Source of the DNA: a virus
Lineage: Duplodnaviria > Caudoviricetes
IMG/VR virus record: IMGVR_UViG_3300033121_002300
Coordinates: 18,084-82,083 of that record
DNA length: 64,000 nt
Direction: 5' to 3' (one strand)
Made by a program: the position numbers and the translations under genes. Shown here in pieces: positions 44,487 through 63,640 of the stretch (position 1 is the stretch's first letter; each line of letters opens with the position of its first letter). Below the pieces are notes generated by a model that saw nothing but the letters and a program-made list of their open reading frames with translations, was not told where the DNA came from and made no database searches.

Positions 44487-46381
44487 TGTTTAATGAATTA
44501 TTATCCACCATGTCTAATATTAAAAGCCCTCAAACGGATTTAGGTCAATTTTTACCAACCGTTTTTGCTAGTCAAGGTAACTTTTCTCCCTTGTTATTTA
44601 ACAAGACCCTTGATTTGTACAATCAAAAATATAATAAAAATGAAAAAAATCCATTTAATAAATATGTTAATAATTATATGGGTTCAAATGTTGTAAAGAA
44701 TATAAAGGAATATAAAGGACTTATTGACAATGAGAAGGCTATTTATGGAGCAAAAGAACCTGGATTTTCATCCTTATTTCTAAATGCAAAAGGTTCTGTA
44801 AATAGAACTTCCCCTTACGAAGAAGTTTTAAAAGCAGGGAAGATTAGAGCTGAATCTTTAAATAAATTAGTTGATTCAGATATTTCTCATACTACCACAA
44901 ATCTAGGTACTAATATGGCATTGCTACAGGGAGAAAATCTAGCTAAAAATTTCATAACTCAAAAAGCCGTTGGCAAAGCTACTGAGTTAATAGCAGATAA
45001 AGTTGGAGATAAACTCAAAGATAAATTCAAGAACTATAACCAAGATCAAATAGCTAAAGTCATAACTGAGACCAGTGATAGGATATCAGGGTTTAATAGA
45101 TCGAAATTAGGATTAATGGATATTGCTAAGTTTATAAATCCAGTGCCTATAATGTTAGGTTCAGCTGGTTTAAAAGCTGGTAATGCGGTAGTAAAACAAG
45201 GTTTAATGGGAGTGCTTGGAGTGCAAGATGCCTATCATGCAACAAGTAATGAATCAGCTAAAAAGATAGTAGAACACGGGTTAGATCCATCAAGAGGCGG
45301 GCAAAAAGGTGGTGCGACAAGGGCTTTAATGAGAGAAGCTTATGAGTCTAATAAGATATACCCAACAATAAAAGCAGCCCCATTGATCTCCCAGCAGCGA
45401 GATGCTTATTTAAAAGTTCCAGTATATGACTTATTCGATCAGGCTGTTCAAAGAAGTTATGTTGGGACAGGTTTAGTCGGAAAGGGTTCAGTTGGATATT
45501 ATGCGGCAAAGACAAACCCTGAAGGTTTTATGGAAAAGGTTAAAAACGTTATTGAATCTACTGCATTAGCACGAAAACAACTAGAACAAACTTCATTCAA
45601 GAATCCAATAAAAAAAATAAAAGCATTTGCGAACACAGCCAAAGAAGTTGCTAAAACTCCACTAAAGGTAAATGACTTATACAATTTTTTATACTCAAAG
45701 AATCCTGAAGAAATGAAAATCGTTGCAACCGCAATGCCGTTCAATGAGTTCCATCAAAGATTTGAACCAGATCCTCAAGATGTTGCATATCTTAGAACAG
45801 GATACAGAACTAAGAGACCGAAAGAGATAGACCCCTTAGGTGAAAAAACATTTACGATGACTGATGATCAACTAGATAAACACGTATCAGATGCTCTTGA
45901 GGGTGTATCAAAGTCTGAATTGCAACCAATAAAAAATTTCAGACCTGGTGAACTATCATATGCTGACATAATAAAAGCGAGAACTCCTCTTTCTGAATAT
46001 GGTAAATTTCTTGGAACATCAAAAGGTAGAAAACATTTTGCAAAAGGGGTAGCCTACCTTGGTGGTGGAGGTTTATTGAGTTATCAAGGTGCTAAGGTTA
46101 TATCAAAGCCATATATTGGGCTCTATAATAAAGTAAAAGGGGACTCTGCTAAAGTGAAGGATTTAATAACTAAGAAGCGTGCTGTAGAACTTAATGAAAC
46201 CTTACCGCTTACTATTAACAAATCAGAAACAGTTGATGTAATTGATAAATCTTTGAAGGAAAATAAAAGTAAAATTATAGATAAATTTCTAACTAAAAGA
46301 AGTCCAATTTTAATGACATTAGGAGCAGGTGCTTTAGCGACAGGAATTGGAACTGGATTATATTATAATAAGGAAAAATAA
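44486..46381 (+). CDS. Putative internal virion/ejection protein with hydrophobic Gly-rich segments
   Basis: Start overlaps the RNAP stop (taatg); YLGGGGLLSY and C-terminal LGAGALATGIGTGLYY. Confidence 0.55.
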   Translation: MFNELLSTMSNIKSPQTDLGQFLPTVFASQGNFSPLLFNKTLDLYNQKYNKNEKNPFNKYVNNYMGSNVVKNIKEYKGLIDNEKAIYGAKEPGFSSLFLNAKGSVNRTSPYEEVLKAGKIRAESLNKLVDSDISHTTTNLGTNMALLQGENLAKNFITQKAVGKATELIADKVGDKLKDKFKNYNQDQIAKVITETSDRISGFNRSKLGLMDIAKFINPVPIMLGSAGLKAGNAVVKQGLMGVLGVQDAYHATSNESAKKIVEHGLDPSRGGQKGGATRALMREAYESNKIYPTIKAAPLISQQRDAYLKVPVYDLFDQAVQRSYVGTGLVGKGSVGYYAAKTNPEGFMEKVKNVIESTALARKQLEQTSFKNPIKKIKAFANTAKEVAKTPLKVNDLYNFLYSKNPEEMKIVATAMPFNEFHQRFEPDPQDVAYLRTGYRTKRPKEIDPLGEKTFTMTDDQLDKHVSDALEGVSKSELQPIKNFRPGELSYADIIKARTPLSEYGKFLGTSKGRKHFAKGVAYLGGGGLLSYQGAKVISKPYIGLYNKVKGDSAKVKDLITKKRAVELNETLPLTINKSETVDVIDKSLKENKSKIIDKFLTKRSPILMTLGAGALATGIGTGLYYNKEK

Positions 46382-46392
46382 GTGAGGTTTTT

Positions 46393-46841
46393 ATGTTGAG
46401 TTATATTATTGAAAAGTGTTTAATTGAAAAAAAGCATTTATGGATTATTTCAAAGAAAAAAAACATAAGAAAATAATAAGGGATTTAAGTAAACAAAAAG
46501 AAATTGCAGAGCTTGAAGATGCTATTGCATATCACAAAGCAAGAGTTCAACATGGGGCATCTTTTGAAAGTAAAATAAATGAACCTTCAATAAATATAGC
46601 AAATGAACTACGGGGTGGAATTAAGGATGTTGGGGATGTTGTTTCCGATGTAATAAAAGAACAGAGAGAAACTAAAATAAAAGGAATCGAAAGAGTTGTT
46701 GATAGAGTAGGTGATAATGTAGTCCAAGTTGCAGAAAAACTTAAACCGTTATACCCATTTCTCGGAACAGCAGCTGTAATAGGAGCAGCAGGCGGTTTAG
46801 TTAAACCAATAGCTCATTTATCCGGATATCAGGAAAAATAA
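46393..46841 (+). CDS. Leader-bearing virion protein interrupted by a -1 frameshift at 46428-46434 (body ORF 46440-46841)
   Basis: RBS gtgagg + ATG 46393 gives MLSYIIEKCLIEKK; a -1 shift continues as AFMDYF...; C-terminal FLGTAAVIGAAGGLV helix. Confidence 0.6.
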
Positions 46842-46851
46842 GGAGATTTAA

Positions 46852-47346
46852 ATGAACGAAGTAATAAAAAAAATAACCTGCATATCTATATCAGGTATAA
46901 TCATTTTATTTACCATTGGTGTATTTGTATTACCAGTAATGAGTAAACCAAGTCAAACCGTAAAAGTTTTAGAAATTATTTCAGGTGACACTATAAAAGT
47001 TTCTATTAATAAAATACAGGTCGTTGTAAAATTAGATCACATAAAAGCTCCATCAGTCAATGAAAATGGTTTCGAGGTAAGTCGCAAATTTTTAGAAACA
47101 ATGATACAAAATCGTTTAATCCAGTTATTTTATTATAAAATAGGTTATTCAGAAATTGCTTATGGCATTGTTTACAATCAAGGGGTTGATATTAATAGAT
47201 ATATGGTTTTATCAGGCTTCGCAAAAGCAACCGAACCTGAATACCACCAAGATAAAAACATAGTAAAAGCCCCTAAATATATTTCAGAGCAAAATGAAGC
47301 TATTAAAAATGATTGCGGTTTATGGAGTATAATATCAGGATATTAA
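46852..47346 (+). CDS. Thermonuclease (SNase)-fold protein with N-terminal anchor, catalytic residues degenerate
   Basis: VLEIISGDTI...VKLDHIKAPS...INRYMVLSGFA; TM/signal at the N-terminus. Confidence 0.8.
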   Translation: MNEVIKKITCISISGIIILFTIGVFVLPVMSKPSQTVKVLEIISGDTIKVSINKIQVVVKLDHIKAPSVNENGFEVSRKFLETMIQNRLIQLFYYKIGYSEIAYGIVYNQGVDINRYMVLSGFAKATEPEYHQDKNIVKAPKYISEQNEAIKNDCGLWSIISGY

Positions 47347-47362
47347 AATGAAGGAAATTTAA

Positions 47363-48559
47363 GTGATTAATTTAAACTCTCTTATAATAAATAAACAAGC
47401 TGAAATAAAAAACAAAGAAAATGAAAGCATTGTCCCTAAAATTATTGGAGGTGTATCATTAATTGCTGCTGGAAAATATTTACATGAAATAAATTCAGCT
47501 CTTAAGCATGAAGATTCGCTGAAAAATATAGAAACCATGTTTAAAGAAATTAAAAAGAATCCAAAACCAATTAAATCTGTAAAAATACCAGAAGGTGTTA
47601 GCGTTATTAGAAATGCAACTGATAAACAAAAATACCTTAACACCTATCAAGATTATATTGCTCCGGAAAAAGTCCAATTAAAAGATCTGTGGAAAAATAC
47701 AACTGAAGCATTTAGAAAACCAACGGCATCAACACTGGCTGATGTAGCTTCGCAATCAGATGGAATGTTTGTGGCTACAAGGAAAATTCCAGGATGGAAA
47801 CACCCAACAGAACAAGATTATGTTAAACCATTTGTTTTTGTTCCTGAAAAACATATAGAAACAGGGGGTCAAATTCTTGAACATGAATTAGGTCACTTTG
47901 ATCAATATCAAAAAGGAGATATTGAATCCTATTTAAGTTTAAAGAATAGAGCTAAGGGTTATGTTAAATCAATCTATAATCCTAAAAAAGATTCAATATA
48001 TCAAATGGAGGCAGATGCTTGGAGAAGAGCAGGGTATAGCGAAGATGATTCAGTTGCAAGACATGCACTAAAAACCTATGAAAATAATGCAAGATTAAAT
48101 AGAACTCATCTACTTAAAAATATTGCAGGTATTACTGGACTAGGAGTAGCCGGTAAAGCTATTTATGATTATAATCACACGTTAAATAATAAGAAAAAAA
48201 ACGCAAGTATAGCCTTGGATCGGTATAGAAAAATTTTAGATGCAGGATACCTATATGAAGGAAATGCTAAAAAATTTCTATATCGAAATATACTTAAAGG
48301 TAAAACACCGGAAGAAATTGGATTCATAAATTTAACAAGGAAAGATAGAGAATCAATAGCCAGGCTCTCATCTAAAGGTAAGGAATATGGAATTGATATA
48401 TCAAGAGACTTTGGTAGAGAAACCTCAAAGGGAGAAATTGGAGCAGTTATTAATAATAGATTATCCAAGTCCTTAAAAGAGGAAGGAAACTTTGACAATT
48501 TGGAAAATATCCTGAATCAATACAAACACAATTTACAAAAAACTTTCCATATTGTATAA
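47363..48559 (+). CDS. Leader-bearing virion protein with HExxH zinc-metallopeptidase-like domain
   Basis: Leader MINLNSLIINKQAE; ILEHELGH plus downstream MEADAW; flanking Gly-rich helices. Confidence 0.65.
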   Translation: MINLNSLIINKQAEIKNKENESIVPKIIGGVSLIAAGKYLHEINSALKHEDSLKNIETMFKEIKKNPKPIKSVKIPEGVSVIRNATDKQKYLNTYQDYIAPEKVQLKDLWKNTTEAFRKPTASTLADVASQSDGMFVATRKIPGWKHPTEQDYVKPFVFVPEKHIETGGQILEHELGHFDQYQKGDIESYLSLKNRAKGYVKSIYNPKKDSIYQMEADAWRRAGYSEDDSVARHALKTYENNARLNRTHLLKNIAGITGLGVAGKAIYDYNHTLNNKKKNASIALDRYRKILDAGYLYEGNAKKFLYRNILKGKTPEEIGFINLTRKDRESIARLSSKGKEYGIDISRDFGRETSKGEIGAVINNRLSKSLKEEGNFDNLENILNQYKHNLQKTFHIV

Positions 48560-48594: not shown

Positions 48595-50235
48595 ATGCAA
48601 ACTCCGGCAGAAAAAGGACCAGCCAATAATACTTTAAAAGTATTAACAGCTCTGAATCAATTCGATGATGAAAATAAGGAAATCGAATATCTTCTAAAAA
48701 GCGATCTTGCTGAAGCAATGGTTTTACTTAAAGGTAAAGTAATCTCTTATACCGATTACCCTATTCAAAAAGAAGTAATGAATTGCGACTCACATGAAAT
48801 TCTTTATTTTGGCGGAAGACAAATTAGTAAATCAACACTAGAGGGGGTTGATATAATAATTGATTGTATTTTACATGAATGGCTTTCTACTTTATACGTT
48901 GCCCCTGAATTAAATCAAGTAAAAGAATTTTCCACAATGAAGCTGAAGGCTATAATAGAAAAGTCACCTCAAGTTCAGGAATATATAGATTCAAGTTGCC
49001 TTACAAATGTATTTGAAAAGAGCTTCACAACAAATTCCCGTGTTGTTTTAAGGGCTATTAGCCAGGAAATAAGAGGTATAGAGGCAATGAAGATCAGAGA
49101 AGATGAAATACAAGATGCCACTATTGACGAGCTTAGATTAATTGAAATAGTTTTAGACGGTCAAAAGGAGTGGTGGAAATTTAGAGCAGGAACAGCTAAA
49201 ACATTAAATAACCCCATTGAGTACTATAGAAAACGTTCAAAGCAAATGGTCCCAGTTCTAAAATGCCCTGAATGTAGTTATCATAACATTCCAAGTCTTG
49301 ATAATATAAAACCAGATGGACTTAAGTGTAAAAAATGCAAGGGAGCTTTTCTAAGCGTAAGACAACCGTATCTTACAATGCAATGTATAGCAAATAAAGA
49401 TAATGATGCAGTATCTTTTTGGGTTCCACAAATCGCACTTCCCCTTCACGTTGAAGATAAAACGAAATGGCGTGAAGTTTATCGAAAATTTACAGAATAT
49501 CCAACAGAACAATTCTTAAATGAAGTTATGGGAATCTCTGCCGGTTCAGCTTACGGTTTAATAACCGAAGAGGATTTAGTTAAATGCTGTAAAAATAATA
49601 ATGGAATTGATTCATTTGAAATCAAGGAAAATCTACCAACAAATTTAGGGTTTAATTTATATATGGGAATAGATTGGGGATTAACTCAATTTGTTTCATT
49701 TACAGTTGTAAGCATATGTGGATATAATCCATTAACAAAAAGATTCACCGTTATTTACATGGAAATGGTTTTAAATCCAGATCCGGATTATCAGGTTGAA
49801 CGATGCTTTCATCTCGCTAGGAAATTCGGAGTATCAGTAGTAATACCAGATGCCGGTAGCGGATTCGATAGAAACTTCGAGCTAAAAAAAATGCTCTCAA
49901 TATTTAAAGTTCCGGTATATCCTATGTATAACGTTAAACAAAAGGAAGTTATAAGATGGGATGAAGTTGAAGAAAACTATAAAATTGATAGAACAAAAAG
50001 CTTGACGGATACATTTAAAGCTATCAGGAAAACAAAGATACATTTTTTTAGCTGGGATAGATTTAAGTATTTTGCACCACATTTTTTAGCAGAATACATT
50101 GAATGGGGTAAAGACAAAAATGGAAATCCAACCGTAAAATACGACCACGATCCTGATAATCCAGATGATTCATTACACTCAGTAAATGTCGTTAGAACTT
50201 ATTTAAAGCATATCATGCCAGCAAATACAGTTTAG
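48595..50235 (+). CDS. terL: Terminase large subunit
   Basis: Walker A GGRQISKS, Walker B IREDEIQD, RNase H-like YMGIDWG, C-terminal PDDSLHS; CPEC/CKKC ribbon. Confidence 0.9.
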   Translation: MQTPAEKGPANNTLKVLTALNQFDDENKEIEYLLKSDLAEAMVLLKGKVISYTDYPIQKEVMNCDSHEILYFGGRQISKSTLEGVDIIIDCILHEWLSTLYVAPELNQVKEFSTMKLKAIIEKSPQVQEYIDSSCLTNVFEKSFTTNSRVVLRAISQEIRGIEAMKIREDEIQDATIDELRLIEIVLDGQKEWWKFRAGTAKTLNNPIEYYRKRSKQMVPVLKCPECSYHNIPSLDNIKPDGLKCKKCKGAFLSVRQPYLTMQCIANKDNDAVSFWVPQIALPLHVEDKTKWREVYRKFTEYPTEQFLNEVMGISAGSAYGLITEEDLVKCCKNNNGIDSFEIKENLPTNLGFNLYMGIDWGLTQFVSFTVVSICGYNPLTKRFTVIYMEMVLNPDPDYQVERCFHLARKFGVSVVIPDAGSGFDRNFELKKMLSIFKVPVYPMYNVKQKEVIRWDEVEENYKIDRTKSLTDTFKAIRKTKIHFFSWDRFKYFAPHFLAEYIEWGKDKNGNPTVKYDHDPDNPDDSLHSVNVVRTYLKHIMPANTV

Positions 50236-60023: not shown

Positions 60024-62411
60024 ATGTTAAAAGAATTAATTGTAAATAAAACAGCTGAAATCAGAAAAAAAAATAAATGGAAAGAAGAATTTGGGGACAT
60101 AAAAACTCAAAATCCTCTTTTAGATCCTGGTGGAGCAATGCCGGTTGGAAAACCTTATACAAATACGACTCAAGCTGTCCCCGTTGGTAAATCTTATACA
60201 AATACAACCCAATCGGTACCGGTTGGAAGCCCTTACACCACTCAGTCAGTTGTCCCTTATAACAATCAAACGCAGGTTGTATCACCAAGCAATGCAATCA
60301 GACTAGGCGCAAAACCTGATGCTGAGGTTAATATAGGCCCCACATTTTACTCTAACATGCAAAGATCTACTGATAAAAGAGAATTAATCCCATCAACTGG
60401 TAATTCAATCATTAATCAAACTCAAGTTGCATCTTCGGGGAATCAAAATACAGCTCAGTCAGTTGTCCCTTATAACAATCAAACTCAAGTTGCATCTTCG
60501 GGGAATCAAAATACAGCTCAGTCAGTTGTCCCTTATAACAATCAAACTCAAGTTGCATCTAATATAAAAAACCTTTCTACAAATAGTATAAATACAACTC
60601 AAGCTGTTCCGGTTGGGAACTCTTACGGCACAACAATAGGTTCAACTCAAAAACAAATAAGGCAACTTACATCAGGTTCTCCAAACATAAATCAATCAAC
60701 TTCTTCTGGTAATAACTTTAATCCCCCAAAAAAACAAGACCCTAATTTTCAAACAAAAGGAAAGCCTTACAATACAGGCGGAACACCTCCTGAAACGGGA
60801 ATAGTTCGATATCAACAGCCTCAACATAATACTCAGTCAAAGGCTTATAATTCATCTAAAAACAGCTCACCGTCAGAAAAAAATAAAGCCGAACAAAAAA
60901 AAATACTTTCCGCCGAAGAAAAAAAGCAAAAATTTGATAAACTAATGTCAGAAGGACTACCAAGTGGAACAACTGAAAAGAGCAGATATGAAGCTCAATT
61001 GAATGATCCAAATAATTCACCGGAAATGAGAAAAAAAATTGAAGAACGATACAATAGGGTTAAACAAAATCAAAGTCAATCGAGTTCAACTGAGCCTGCT
61101 AAAAATAATATCCCACCAGAATCAGGTTCTCAACAGCCAAAAGGAAATTCTCAGGCCGGATCTTCTGTTCCACCTAAAAACAATGTCCCGCCGGAAAAAG
61201 GCTTTAATGAAGCTTTCAATTTAGACAAAATTCAAAAAGGATGGCAATCAGGGGTTGAAGGAACTGGTGGTGCATTGAAGCAAAGTCTACAATCACTATC
61301 AAATAAATTTTTAGGTACAGGATTTGCAGCTCAAGGCGGAGCTGGACCTGTAAACATGAAAAACCTAGAGAACTTGACAGGCGTAAAAGGAGCCCTGGCA
61401 AGAGGTGCAACCAGCGCATTCCAGCATGGCGGAGTGTTTGATAAGGCAGTTGGGGCTATAGGTAAACATGGGTTAAAAGGTTTAGCGGCGGGGGCTGGAA
61501 TATTAGGAGCAGGGGCGTTAGCGAAAGGAGTTGGTGGAATAGCCAGGTATGCAGTTAACAATGCAGGTGTACTTCCAACCGTTGCAGCCGGAGCTGCTGG
61601 TTTAGCTCATTTGTTTGGAAAACCAGATTTAGGAAATCAAATATCTTCAGGTCTTAAAACATTTAACAAAACAATGAAAGGAGCGAATATGAATATAGAG
61701 CAAGAATACATCATGAGAAAGGTTGCATCACAGGTAAATGATTATATTCCGGATGGATATAAATCAATAGAGGATACAGAATTGTCTGAAAAAAAGGCTT
61801 CCGTTTTACCTAAAATTAAAAGTGAAGCAGAGTTAATGGAGCTCCTTGGTGACTCAATTCCTTTGGATGTAAGAGAAAAAATATGGCAAGGTTTTTCTCA
61901 ATTAAGAAGAAGGGATAACACACAAAGAGCTCTTGAATTAGGGGCAGGCACCGCACTAGGTGTTGTAGGCGGAATAGCTTCAAATATACTGACCGACAAC
62001 ATAAGACAGGTAACAGGGAACCCTAATAGACCTCAAATTGTTATAGCTACACCTCAAGCTGTTAAATCTATAAAGGCAAACAATAGAATGGAATCAAATA
62101 TAAAAGAAGCAAGTGAATTAAATACACTTTCTCAAGCCATAGAAGACGGAATCCGAGCCGCTCATCATAAGGACTTTCTGGAAAGCGGAGCAGAAAAATT
62201 ACATAAATTTGTGAAGCTAAACCCAAAACTCTCACCTTATTTGGCCGGTATGGGAACAATGGCATTTGGTCCGGGATTGGTTAATCAATTAACTGGAGCA
62301 GCCGGTTCTGGATATAACTTTCTACAATCACAATACAATAATTTAAACTATGGATATAATGCAGGAGGATACGGAAATCCTTACGGTTATGGTGGTTACT
62401 ATGGCTACTAA
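60024..62411 (+). CDS. Large leader-bearing low-complexity virion protein
   Basis: MLKELIVNKTAE; Q/N/T/P/S-rich repeats, Gly/Ala-rich helices, internal RKVAS and EKKAS, Tyr/Gly-rich tail. Confidence 0.65.
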   Translation: MLKELIVNKTAEIRKKNKWKEEFGDIKTQNPLLDPGGAMPVGKPYTNTTQAVPVGKSYTNTTQSVPVGSPYTTQSVVPYNNQTQVVSPSNAIRLGAKPDAEVNIGPTFYSNMQRSTDKRELIPSTGNSIINQTQVASSGNQNTAQSVVPYNNQTQVASSGNQNTAQSVVPYNNQTQVASNIKNLSTNSINTTQAVPVGNSYGTTIGSTQKQIRQLTSGSPNINQSTSSGNNFNPPKKQDPNFQTKGKPYNTGGTPPETGIVRYQQPQHNTQSKAYNSSKNSSPSEKNKAEQKKILSAEEKKQKFDKLMSEGLPSGTTEKSRYEAQLNDPNNSPEMRKKIEERYNRVKQNQSQSSSTEPAKNNIPPESGSQQPKGNSQAGSSVPPKNNVPPEKGFNEAFNLDKIQKGWQSGVEGTGGALKQSLQSLSNKFLGTGFAAQGGAGPVNMKNLENLTGVKGALARGATSAFQHGGVFDKAVGAIGKHGLKGLAAGAGILGAGALAKGVGGIARYAVNNAGVLPTVAAGAAGLAHLFGKPDLGNQISSGLKTFNKTMKGANMNIEQEYIMRKVASQVNDYIPDGYKSIEDTELSEKKASVLPKIKSEAELMELLGDSIPLDVREKIWQGFSQLRRRDNTQRALELGAGTALGVVGGIASNILTDNIRQVTGNPNRPQIVIATPQAVKSIKANNRMESNIKEASELNTLSQAIEDGIRAAHHKDFLESGAEKLHKFVKLNPKLSPYLAGMGTMAFGPGLVNQLTGAAGSGYNFLQSQYNNLNYGYNAGGYGNPYGYGGYYGY
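60414..60560 (+). repeat. Exact in-frame 63-bp tandem repeat (2 copies plus 21 bp)
   Basis: Unit encodes NQTQVASSGNQNTAQSVVPYN; a partial copy lies at about 60240-60283. Confidence 0.95.
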
Positions 62412-63264
62412 TCCAAGTAGGGATGATGTTAAAAACGCTCTTGATACAATATTTTCATTACCTCAAAGTGAGCTGGAAAAAATAATAACTGGAGCTCAGC
62501 AGGTATTTAATTCAAGGGAACACTCCGAGGTTAACGATACTATACCAGCGGAAAGACCTAATCTAAAATTTCCGTCATATATAACTATAACTCACGCTGA
62601 GTGGATTATGACGGAATTTATAAAAGAATTATTTAACAATTACGATGAAGATTATTATATGGCAAATGAGAATGATGCAACCCATGACAATAGTATTATT
62701 GTAACAAATAGCTTCAACGATATAGATGAGAAAATAGGTCAAACACCAAGAATTGTAGTGGACGTAGGGCAATCAGCAGCTTCACAATCTTTTATGGCGA
62801 ATATAAATGCTAAAGCTTCTGATTTTATTTCCCCTGATACAATAAAGGGTAAAAATTCAGCAGCACTTCAATTACCTATTTCAATAAGCGTAATATCCCC
62901 AAAAAAGAATGAATGTAATATTTTAGCCTGTATGATTCAAATGGCTATTATAGAGAACATGGATTTACTTAGAGAAATTTTCAATATCTATAAATTTACT
63001 TTTCCGGCAGTCAATGGAGCAAAACAAATAAAAGATAAAGGCAAATTAATGATGGCTTCGGTTCAACTTCAGATGGAGAGATATGTAAGTTGGTCAACAG
63101 TGCTTAAGATAAAAAGTTACAAAAATCTTTATCTTAGACTTAATGCTTATGGGCACGGAGACAAAACTCCCCCAATAAGAACAATAATATCATCATATGA
63201 CTATCCACTTGATCCTCAGGTGGTAAAAATGCTTGATGAAATGGAAAAGAGGTTTAAAGACTAG
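62401..63264 (+). CDS. Putative tail-completion/terminator protein (start reassigned from 62350 to ATG 62401)
   Basis: RBS ggtgg; IIVTNSF...PRIVVDVG...LPISISVIS pattern. Confidence 0.45.
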   Translation: MATNPSRDDVKNALDTIFSLPQSELEKIITGAQQVFNSREHSEVNDTIPAERPNLKFPSYITITHAEWIMTEFIKELFNNYDEDYYMANENDATHDNSIIVTNSFNDIDEKIGQTPRIVVDVGQSAASQSFMANINAKASDFISPDTIKGKNSAALQLPISISVISPKKNECNILACMIQMAIIENMDLLREIFNIYKFTFPAVNGAKQIKDKGKLMMASVQLQMERYVSWSTVLKIKSYKNLYLRLNAYGHGDKTPPIRTIISSYDYPLDPQVVKMLDEMEKRFKD

Positions 63265-63640
63265 TGATAAATAATATTATTTTAGAAAAAAAGCTTCTAA
63301 ATTAAAAGAAGTCGCCGATGAATTATATCAAGGTCTAAAAGAGACTGCAAAAAAAGAAAGAACAGTTTCGGAATATATAGACAGAGATGTTTTAGGCACC
63401 AGAATGGGAGACTTGAAAAATTGGGCAACCGGAAAAGTTCCAGGTTTAAGTAATTCAAAATATTTAGCTCCAATAGTTGGAACCGGATTAACAGGTTTAT
63501 CTCTTTACGGAGTTCATGATATAATAAATAATAAAAAATATGATTATTCTTTTAATGATGTATATTGGGGTTTAACTGGATTGCCAGTATATGCAGCATA
63601 TAGAGGAACAAAAAAAATAGGAGAAAAATTAAATGTTTGA
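63264..63640 (+). CDS. Leader-bearing protein interrupted by a -1 frameshift at 63287-63293 (body frame open from 63275)
   Basis: GTG 63264 gives MINNIILEKK; a -1 shift continues as ASKLKEVADEL...; TM-like LAPIVGTGLTGLSLYGV. Confidence 0.6.

What the first reader, a model, noticed from the sequence alone, without database searches (positions are those of the whole stretch)
46393..46476. -1 frameshift at A-AAA-AAG joins the leader to the body and creates the KKA motif (site 1)
Seen: ATG 46393 has the RBS; frame 0 reads ...GAA AAA AAG (heptamer 46428-46434) and stops at 46474-46476 (27 aa). The -1 frame is closed by TGA just before the A-run, and a shift yields EKKAF-MDYF (149 aa). Known: A-AAA-AAG is the dnaX/IS3-type slippery site. 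I see no strong stimulatory hairpin or internal SD. Inference: programmed frameshifting, transcriptional slippage or phase variation limits how much leader-tagged protein is made; ATG 46440 could give an untagged form.
Basis: partly seen in the sequence, partly recalled or inferred. Interest (0 to 1): 0.7.

Follow-up and report, generated by a model that had tools for sequence, protein, structure and literature searches.

The report
One-base frame break after phage leader
A small orphan gene of an uncultured phage has its start codon and short targeting-type leader one base out of frame with the rest of the gene at a run of seven A's. This looks more like a recent one-base loss at a slippery spot, read through only occasionally, than a purpose-built frameshift signal.

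Summary
Observation confirmed. ATG 46393 has a strong ribosome-binding site and opens a 27-codon frame that holds A_AAA_AAG (46428-46434). The 135-codon body, ending at 46841, lies in the -1 frame, which is closed by TGA just upstream.

The leader looks real. It resembles the in-frame N-terminal leaders of other genes of this phage and its relatives, ranking 13th of 4080 start peptides.

The body has no homologue anywhere, so site 1 cannot be compared with relatives. The twin site 2 (63264-63305, same 10-mer) can. Two relatives encode leader and body in one frame, and the one with readable DNA has GAA AAA AAG GCA. The window therefore lacks one base at site 2.

There is no stimulatory Shine-Dalgarno element or hairpin at site 1. 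In-phase heptamers are not avoided: 12 occur in other genes, two of them in the RNA polymerase. Homopolymers elsewhere in the genome are clean, so an assembly error is not favoured. Reads could not be checked.

The most likely reading is a derived one-base loss at a slippage-prone tract, leaving a leaky, mostly silenced gene. Selected frameshifting remains possible, at about 1 in 6.

The parts
46384..46387 (+). Shine-Dalgarno GAGG, 5 nt before ATG 46393
   Evidence: duplex with the anti-SD is -8.5 kcal/mol, stronger than 79% of the genome's gene starts.
46393..46476 (+). Frame-0 ORF of 27 codons. The first 14 codons are the leader; the last 13 are out-of-frame read-through of the body.
   Evidence: Leader-likeness: rank 13 of 4080 start peptides. 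A post-hoc pattern matched only sites 1 and 2.
46425..46427 (+). TGA that closes the -1 (body) frame directly before the A-run
46428..46434 (+). A_AAA_AAG in the slippery phase of frame 0, part of the run A7 at 46427-46433. This is the only place where leader and body can be joined.
46434..46841 (+). Body in the -1 frame: 135 codons with a Gly/Ala-rich helix near the C-terminus. It is an orphan with no family.
46440..46442 (+). First ATG of the body frame, two codons after the junction, with no Shine-Dalgarno. A possible start of an untagged form.
   Evidence: -0.3 kcal/mol, weaker than 88% of gene starts.
46458..46464 (+). Second in-phase slippery heptamer, A_AAA_AAC, in frame 0 before its stop. 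A -1 slip here also enters the body frame.
63264..63305 (+). Twin site 2: GTG start and a 13-codon frame-0 leader ORF with A_AAA_AAG at 63287-63293 in the same 10-mer context.
63293..63640 (+). Body of site 2 in the -1 frame. Homologues P0018 and P0019 have leader and body in one frame.

Best explanation
46393-46841 is one small virion-cargo-type gene. It has a capsid-targeting-type N-terminal leader and an orphan body with a Gly/Ala-rich helix.

The gene has lost one base at the E-K-K|A junction, from GAA AAA AAG GCN or GAA AAA AAA GCN, so leader and body are now out of frame. Because the loss lies on A_AAA_AAG / A7, a small share of ribosomes can slip back one base, or RNA polymerases can add one A, and still make the 149-residue tagged protein. 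Most ribosomes make the 27-residue peptide.

This is a derived, lineage-private indel at a slippage-prone tract, leaky rather than designed. The same thing happened independently at site 2.

Shown: the frame break, the position of the start signals, the leader family, and the in-frame state of site 2 in relatives.

Inferred: that site 1 had the same history, that the base is really missing in the phage DNA, and that read-through is low.
For: - Start signals sit at the leader, not the body.
- The leader resembles in-frame leaders of other genes here and in relatives.
- At site 2, with the same 10-mer, relatives P0018 and P0019 are in one frame. L006 reads A7GG against A7G in the window.
- An internal in-frame E-K-K-A-S at 61788 of the window also reads A7GG.
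- The 43 residues of site 2 upstream of its first ATG are still conserved, so the break is recent or rescued.
- There is no downstream structure at site 1 (-3.6 kcal/mol, z -1.2) and no upstream SD-like element.
- In-phase A_AAA_AAG is not avoided: 12 observed against 15 expected, with two in the RNAP gene. Slippage at the bare motif therefore cannot be frequent.
- In the E. coli reporter system of PMC4066793, heptamers without a stimulator gave at most about 10 times a 0.055% background.
- Indels compensated by low-level frameshifting are a described class (PMC5009743).
- The assembly looks sound. Run lengths decay smoothly, there are 64 runs of 8 or more, and the longest ORFs checked (up to 1991 aa) are unbroken across such runs.
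Against: - Two breaks of the same kind, at the same motif position, in two unrelated genes of one genome is more than a single accident would suggest.
- Both bodies are fully open.
- Site 1 has no homologue, so its ancestral state is only inferred by analogy.
- Reads were not available, so neither an assembly error nor a mixed population is excluded.
Confidence: 0.5

Rival explanations
1. Selected (programmed) -1 frameshifting or polymerase slippage. The phage keeps leader and body out of frame on purpose, so that only a set small fraction of the product carries the leader and is packaged. The same device is used twice.
For: - The best bacterial slippery heptamer is in the right phase at both sites, in the identical 10-mer. 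That 10-mer occurs only 3 times in 82 kb.
- Both breaks fall exactly at the leader/body junction.
- Both bodies are intact, and site 2's N-terminal part is conserved.
- A second in-phase heptamer, A_AAA_AAC, before the frame-0 stop of site 1 leads into the same frame.
- The assembly is otherwise clean.
Against: - The arrangement is not conserved: both known relatives of site 2 are in frame.
- There is no stimulatory SD or hairpin at site 1, and only a weak stem with no spacer at site 2.
- In-phase heptamers are tolerated in 12 other genes, including the RNAP.
- The phase and the K-K-A junction follow automatically from losing one base in GAA AAA AAG GCN.
Confidence: 0.17
2. The base is not missing in the phage, or not in all genomes. 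This would be an assembly or consensus error, or a length-variable tract (A7/A8 or G/GG) in the population, of which the assembler reported one state.
For: - This is a metagenome-derived contig without replicate.
- Homopolymer-adjacent positions are the usual place for indel errors and for real length variation.
- Relatives are in frame at site 2.
Against: - Run-length distribution is smooth.
- The genome holds 64 runs of 8 or more bases. Those inside the long ORFs checked, up to 1991 codons, leave those frames open.
- Three other A7GGC sites and two A8GC sites are intact in frame.
- Two errors in one context, with the third copy of the 10-mer in frame, is not a systematic pattern.
Confidence: 0.2
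3. There are two separate units. The 133-residue protein simply starts at ATG 46440, perhaps helped by ribosomes translating or terminating the overlapping 27-codon upstream ORF. That ORF is a small independent or regulatory ORF, and no fusion is ever made.
For: - ATG 46440 lies two codons after the junction.
- 12% of gene starts here have an equally weak SD.
- Short out-of-frame ORFs next to A-rich gene starts are common in this genome.
Against: - The strong SD and the tight 11-nt spacing after the previous stop belong to ATG 46393.
- The frame-0 peptide is leader-like.
- The twin site 2 cannot be explained this way. Its first ATG lies 37 codons downstream of the junction, inside sequence conserved with relatives.
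Confidence: 0.13

Closest known systems
E. coli dnaX and IS3/IS911-type programmed -1 ribosomal frameshifting at A_AAA_AAG
   Same: The same heptamer in the same phase. The -1 frame holds the functional continuation.
   Different: - No upstream SD-like element and no downstream hairpin or pseudoknot at the usual spacing.
- The shift is at codon 14 rather than near the end of a functional upstream ORF.
- The zero-frame product is a 27-residue peptide.
- The arrangement is not conserved in relatives at the twin site.
Indels in homopolymer tracts compensated by low-level frameshifting or polymerase slippage ('savior'/corrective class; herpesvirus thymidine kinase G7 run), as reviewed in PMC5009743
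   Same: One base is lost in or beside a run of identical bases. The non-shift product is useless, and a small amount of full product is possible by slippage.
   Different: There is no evidence here that the loss is advantageous. There are two sites in one phage genome, both at a leader/body junction.
Capsid targeting sequence of phage T4 internal proteins (PMC3012670)
   Same: A short N-terminal leader shared by otherwise unrelated small proteins encoded near head and packaging genes.
   Different: The leader sequence differs: aliphatic pair, then K-x-A followed by E/S/G. Cleavage and packaging are untested. In T4 the leader is always in frame with its cargo.
IS1 insA-insB frameshift at A_AAA_AAC (from my own knowledge, not checked here)
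   Same: A bare A-rich heptamer without a strong stimulator gives low-level -1 shifting. The same heptamer stands as a second chance at 46458-46464.
   Different: IS1 fuses two functional ORFs and the arrangement is conserved. Here it may be accidental.

Membership tests
Programmed -1 ribosomal frameshift site (dnaX / IS3 type) | X_XXY_YYZ heptamer in phase with the upstream frame | tested here: met
   A_AAA_AAG at 46428-46434 is in phase with ATG 46393.
Programmed -1 ribosomal frameshift site (dnaX / IS3 type) | Stimulator: an SD-like element about 10-14 nt upstream and/or a stable hairpin or pseudoknot 5-8 nt downstream | tested here: not met
   The downstream 66 nt fold at -3.6 kcal/mol with z -1.2. 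No SD-like run lies upstream of the heptamer.
Programmed -1 ribosomal frameshift site (dnaX / IS3 type) | The out-of-frame arrangement and heptamer are conserved among homologues | tested here: inconclusive
   Site 1's body has no homologue in 5.8 billion or 1.8 billion proteins. At the twin site 2 the feature is not met: P0018 and P0019 are in frame.
Programmed -1 ribosomal frameshift site (dnaX / IS3 type) | The trans-frame product is made at a reproducible ratio | not testable with these tools
   Needs a reporter assay or mass spectrometry.
Transcriptional slippage site | A run of A or T long enough for efficient RNA polymerase slippage, usually 9 or more in bacteria | tested here: not met
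   The run is 7 A. The slippage behaviour of the phage's own RNAP is unknown.
Phase-variable (contingency) homopolymer tract | Tract length varies among reads or strains | not testable with these tools
No second contig carries this gene.
Capsid-targeting leader of packaged internal proteins (T4 CTS-like) | A similar short N-terminal leader on several unrelated proteins encoded near head and packaging genes | tested here: met
   In-frame leaders occur at 47363, 59728, 60024 and 63633 of the window, three in L005 and one in L003. The site 1 peptide ranks 13th of 4080.
Capsid-targeting leader of packaged internal proteins (T4 CTS-like) | The leader is removed by the prohead protease and the cargo is found in virions | not testable with these tools
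   Needs virion proteomics.

The most novel reading that the evidence does not exclude
The phage deliberately separates a capsid-targeting leader from its cargo by one base at A_AAA_AAG in two unrelated genes. Ribosomal or polymerase slippage would then meter how many copies of each cargo protein get the address tag and are packaged. This would be a translational dosage valve for virion-delivered proteins, placed at the N-terminus rather than the C-terminus as in known phage frameshifts.
Probability: 0.15. Interest if true: 0.65.

Novelty: new member of a known kind. Interest (0 to 1): 0.35.

Why it matters
If the break is only a leaky indel, it is a routine annotation matter. The gene should be annotated as one frameshifted leader-plus-body gene, not as a 133-residue ORF. 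If the two matching sites turn out to be selected, they would be the first case of frameshifting used to ration an N-terminal capsid-targeting tag. They would also give a simple handle on how phages set the copy number of packaged proteins. Either way, the two sites give independent support that the shared N-terminal leaders of this phage clade are a real, functional module.

Tried and rejected
- Homologues of the site 1 body: none in Pfam or PHROGs (one PHROG hit at E 0.007, ignored). None in phage records by DNA or protein, in viral contigs, in the 5.8-billion protein set or in the exhaustive HMMER search. The Atlas gave scores below 0.8 and no structural hit.
- Exact-flank search for other strains with a variable A-run: none in viral contigs.
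- Synteny: the closest relative with DNA (L003, terminase 69% identical) has an unrelated 166-residue gene at this position.
- A terminase profile found only distant loci in viral and metagenome contigs.
- The bodies of sites 1 and 2 are not paralogues, so one cannot stand in for the other.
- Two loose scans for 'short ORF + run or heptamer + long shifted frame' returned many chance configurations at ordinary gene junctions and inside genes. That configuration alone is therefore not evidence.
- A systematic homopolymer error was considered and rejected on the run-length census.
- No tRNA genes lie in the window, so nothing can be said about Lys decoding.
- The promoter and terminator scan showed nothing above chance.

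Full report
**Context**

The window is part of an 82,083-base IMG/VR virus record, 32% G+C, estimated 45% complete. Around the finding lie these features:
- a 1991-codon fused RNA polymerase subunit;
- a 631-codon gene ending at 46381;
- the finding itself;
- a staphylococcal-nuclease homologue (46852-47346);
- a 398-codon gene;
- the large terminase (48595-50235).

**Check of the observation**

All sequence statements are correct.
- GAGG stands 5 nt before ATG 46393.
- Frame 0 reads 27 codons to TAA 46474-46476.
- GAA AAA AAG occupies 46426-46434, so A_AAA_AAG is in the slippery phase.
- The -1 frame has TGA at 46425-46427 and is then open for 135 codons to 46841.
- A -1 shift gives a 149-residue product with the junction E-K-K|A-F-M.

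The heptamer by itself means nothing in this A-rich genome: 76 copies in the window against 66 expected. Configurations of a short ORF, an A-run and a long shifted frame also occur by chance at many ordinary gene junctions. Two things are not chance.

First, the translation signals. The SD duplex is -8.5 kcal/mol at ATG 46393, stronger than 79% of the genome's gene starts. That ATG lies 11 nt after the previous stop, and the median same-strand gap is 9 nt. ATG 46440 has -0.3 kcal/mol, weaker than 88% of gene starts.

Second, the frame-0 peptide is leader-like. Several unrelated genes here start with a short leader: Met, a pair of aliphatic residues, then K-x-A followed by E or S. These are at 47363, 59728, 60024 and 63633. 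Relatives carry the same kind of leader, one in L003 and three consecutive genes in L005. Scored against three in-frame leaders from relatives, the site 1 peptide ranks 13th of 4080 start-codon peptides of the genome, and site 2 ranks first. A stricter pattern matched only sites 1 and 2, but I wrote it after seeing both sites, so it counts for less.

**What relatives say**

The body of site 1 is an orphan.
- No Pfam or PHROG family.
- No match in phage records or viral contigs.
- Only itself among 5.8 billion clustered proteins, and only itself in an exhaustive HMMER search of 1.8 billion representatives.
- In the closest relative with DNA (L003, terminase 69% identical), an unrelated 166-codon gene stands between the homologues of the two flanking genes.

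Site 1 therefore cannot be tested by comparison.

That 10-mer occurs only three times in the 82 kb: at the two breaks and once in frame at 60918. Site 2's body does have two homologues, P0018 and P0019, at 53-56% identity. Both carry leader and body in one frame, and the window's shifted product reproduces their N-terminus residue for residue across the junction. The DNA of P0019 (L006) reads GAA AAA AAG GCA where the window reads GAA AAA AAG C. An internal in-frame E-K-K-A-S at 61788 of the window also reads A7GG.

So at site 2 the window lacks one base relative to an in-frame ancestor. The 43 residues upstream of its first ATG are still conserved, so the loss is either recent or rescued. It is shown here only for site 2 and applied to site 1 by analogy.

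**Is the missing base an assembly error?**

Indirect evidence speaks against a systematic error.
- A-run lengths decay smoothly: 720, 267, 127, 67, 32, 7 and 4 for lengths 4 to 10.
- The genome holds 64 runs of 8 or more bases, and ORFs of 1991, 1144 and 1040 codons are unbroken across such runs.
- Other A7GGC and A8GC sites are intact in frame.

A sporadic error, or a mixed population of tract lengths, is not excluded.

**How efficient could a shift be?**

There is no SD-like element upstream of the site 1 heptamer. The downstream 66 nt fold at only -3.6 kcal/mol, z -1.2. Site 2 has a weak six-pair stem starting at the last base of the heptamer, which is too close, and a longer-range fold with z -3.4.

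In-phase A_AAA_AAG occurs 12 times in other genes, against about 15 expected from codon shuffles. Two of these are early in the RNA polymerase gene. Frequent shifting at the bare motif would therefore be costly, and it is evidently not selected against.

In the E. coli reporter system of Sharma et al. 2014 (PMC4066793), heptamers without stimulators gave at most about ten times a 0.055% background. In E. coli genes this heptamer is under-represented. Seven A's is also short for efficient polymerase slippage by bacterial enzymes. The phage's own polymerase is untested.

A second in-phase heptamer, A_AAA_AAC at 46458-46464, lies before the frame-0 stop and leads into the same body frame. It offers a second chance to shift, but may be accidental.

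**Best reading**

46393-46841 is one gene for a small leader-bearing protein. The shared leaders resemble in principle the capsid targeting sequence of T4 internal proteins (PMC3012670), so the protein is probably a packaged internal protein. Its leader and body were separated by a one-base loss at the A-run. The tagged protein can be made only by rare slippage, and most ribosomes make a 27-residue peptide. An untagged form from ATG 46440 is possible but has no ribosome-binding site.

This fits the described class of indels in homopolymer tracts that are partly compensated by low-level frameshifting (PMC5009743). I give it about 0.5.

**Rivals**

- A selected frameshift used twice as a dosage valve, about 0.17. 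In its favour are the identical context, the identical position at the leader/body junction in two unrelated genes and the intact bodies. Against it are the lack of conservation, the lack of stimulators and the tolerated in-phase heptamers.
- An assembly error or length-variable tract, about 0.2.
- Two independent units with the body starting at ATG 46440, about 0.13. This cannot explain site 2.

The coincidence of two sites is weaker evidence than it looks.
- Each gene has only two or three long A-runs where an indel is likely.
- The slippery phase and the K-K-A junction follow automatically from losing a base in GAA AAA AAG GCN.
- Indels at slippery sites are the ones most likely to be tolerated.

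**Novelty and verdict**

As a mechanism it is most likely a new example of a known kind, a leaky indel on a slippery tract, and not a new recoding device. Reads from the source sample, or a closely related strain, would settle it.

Noticed in passing
L005:4554-7138: In a relative (terminase 49% identical), three genes just after the RNA polymerase gene start with nearly the same 13-residue leader ending K-Q-K-E-A-G. The shared N-terminal leader is therefore a clade-wide module with lineage-specific sequence.
   Followed up: partly
window 63264-63640: Twin frame break (site 2). Relatives P0018 and P0019 have leader and body in one frame, and the window lacks one base (A7G against A7GG in L006). 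The 43 residues before the first ATG are conserved.
   Followed up: yes
window 46318-46350 and 61502-61534: A 33-nt stretch is 88% identical between the end of the 631-codon gene and the 795-codon gene. In both it encodes a Gly/Ala-rich helix. This suggests exchange or a common origin of these helices among the putative cargo genes.
   Followed up: no
window 60414-60539: Two perfect tandem copies of a 63-nt unit, plus a diverged third copy at 60201, lie inside the 795-codon leader-bearing gene. 39-nt repeats lie nearby at 60134-60235 and 60587-60625.
   Followed up: no
window 46852-47346: The gene after the finding is a staphylococcal-nuclease homologue (Pfam SNase, E 1e-5). Its N-terminus is a hydrophobic helix rather than the shared leader.
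   Followed up: no
window 38666 and 38759: Two in-phase A_AAA_AAG heptamers lie within the first 90 codons of the 1991-codon RNA polymerase gene. This shows the motif is tolerated in an essential gene.
   Followed up: partly
L003:2396-2896: The closest relative with DNA has an unrelated 166-codon orphan gene in the slot occupied here by the finding and the nuclease gene. This slot between conserved neighbours is a variable accessory position.
   Followed up: partly
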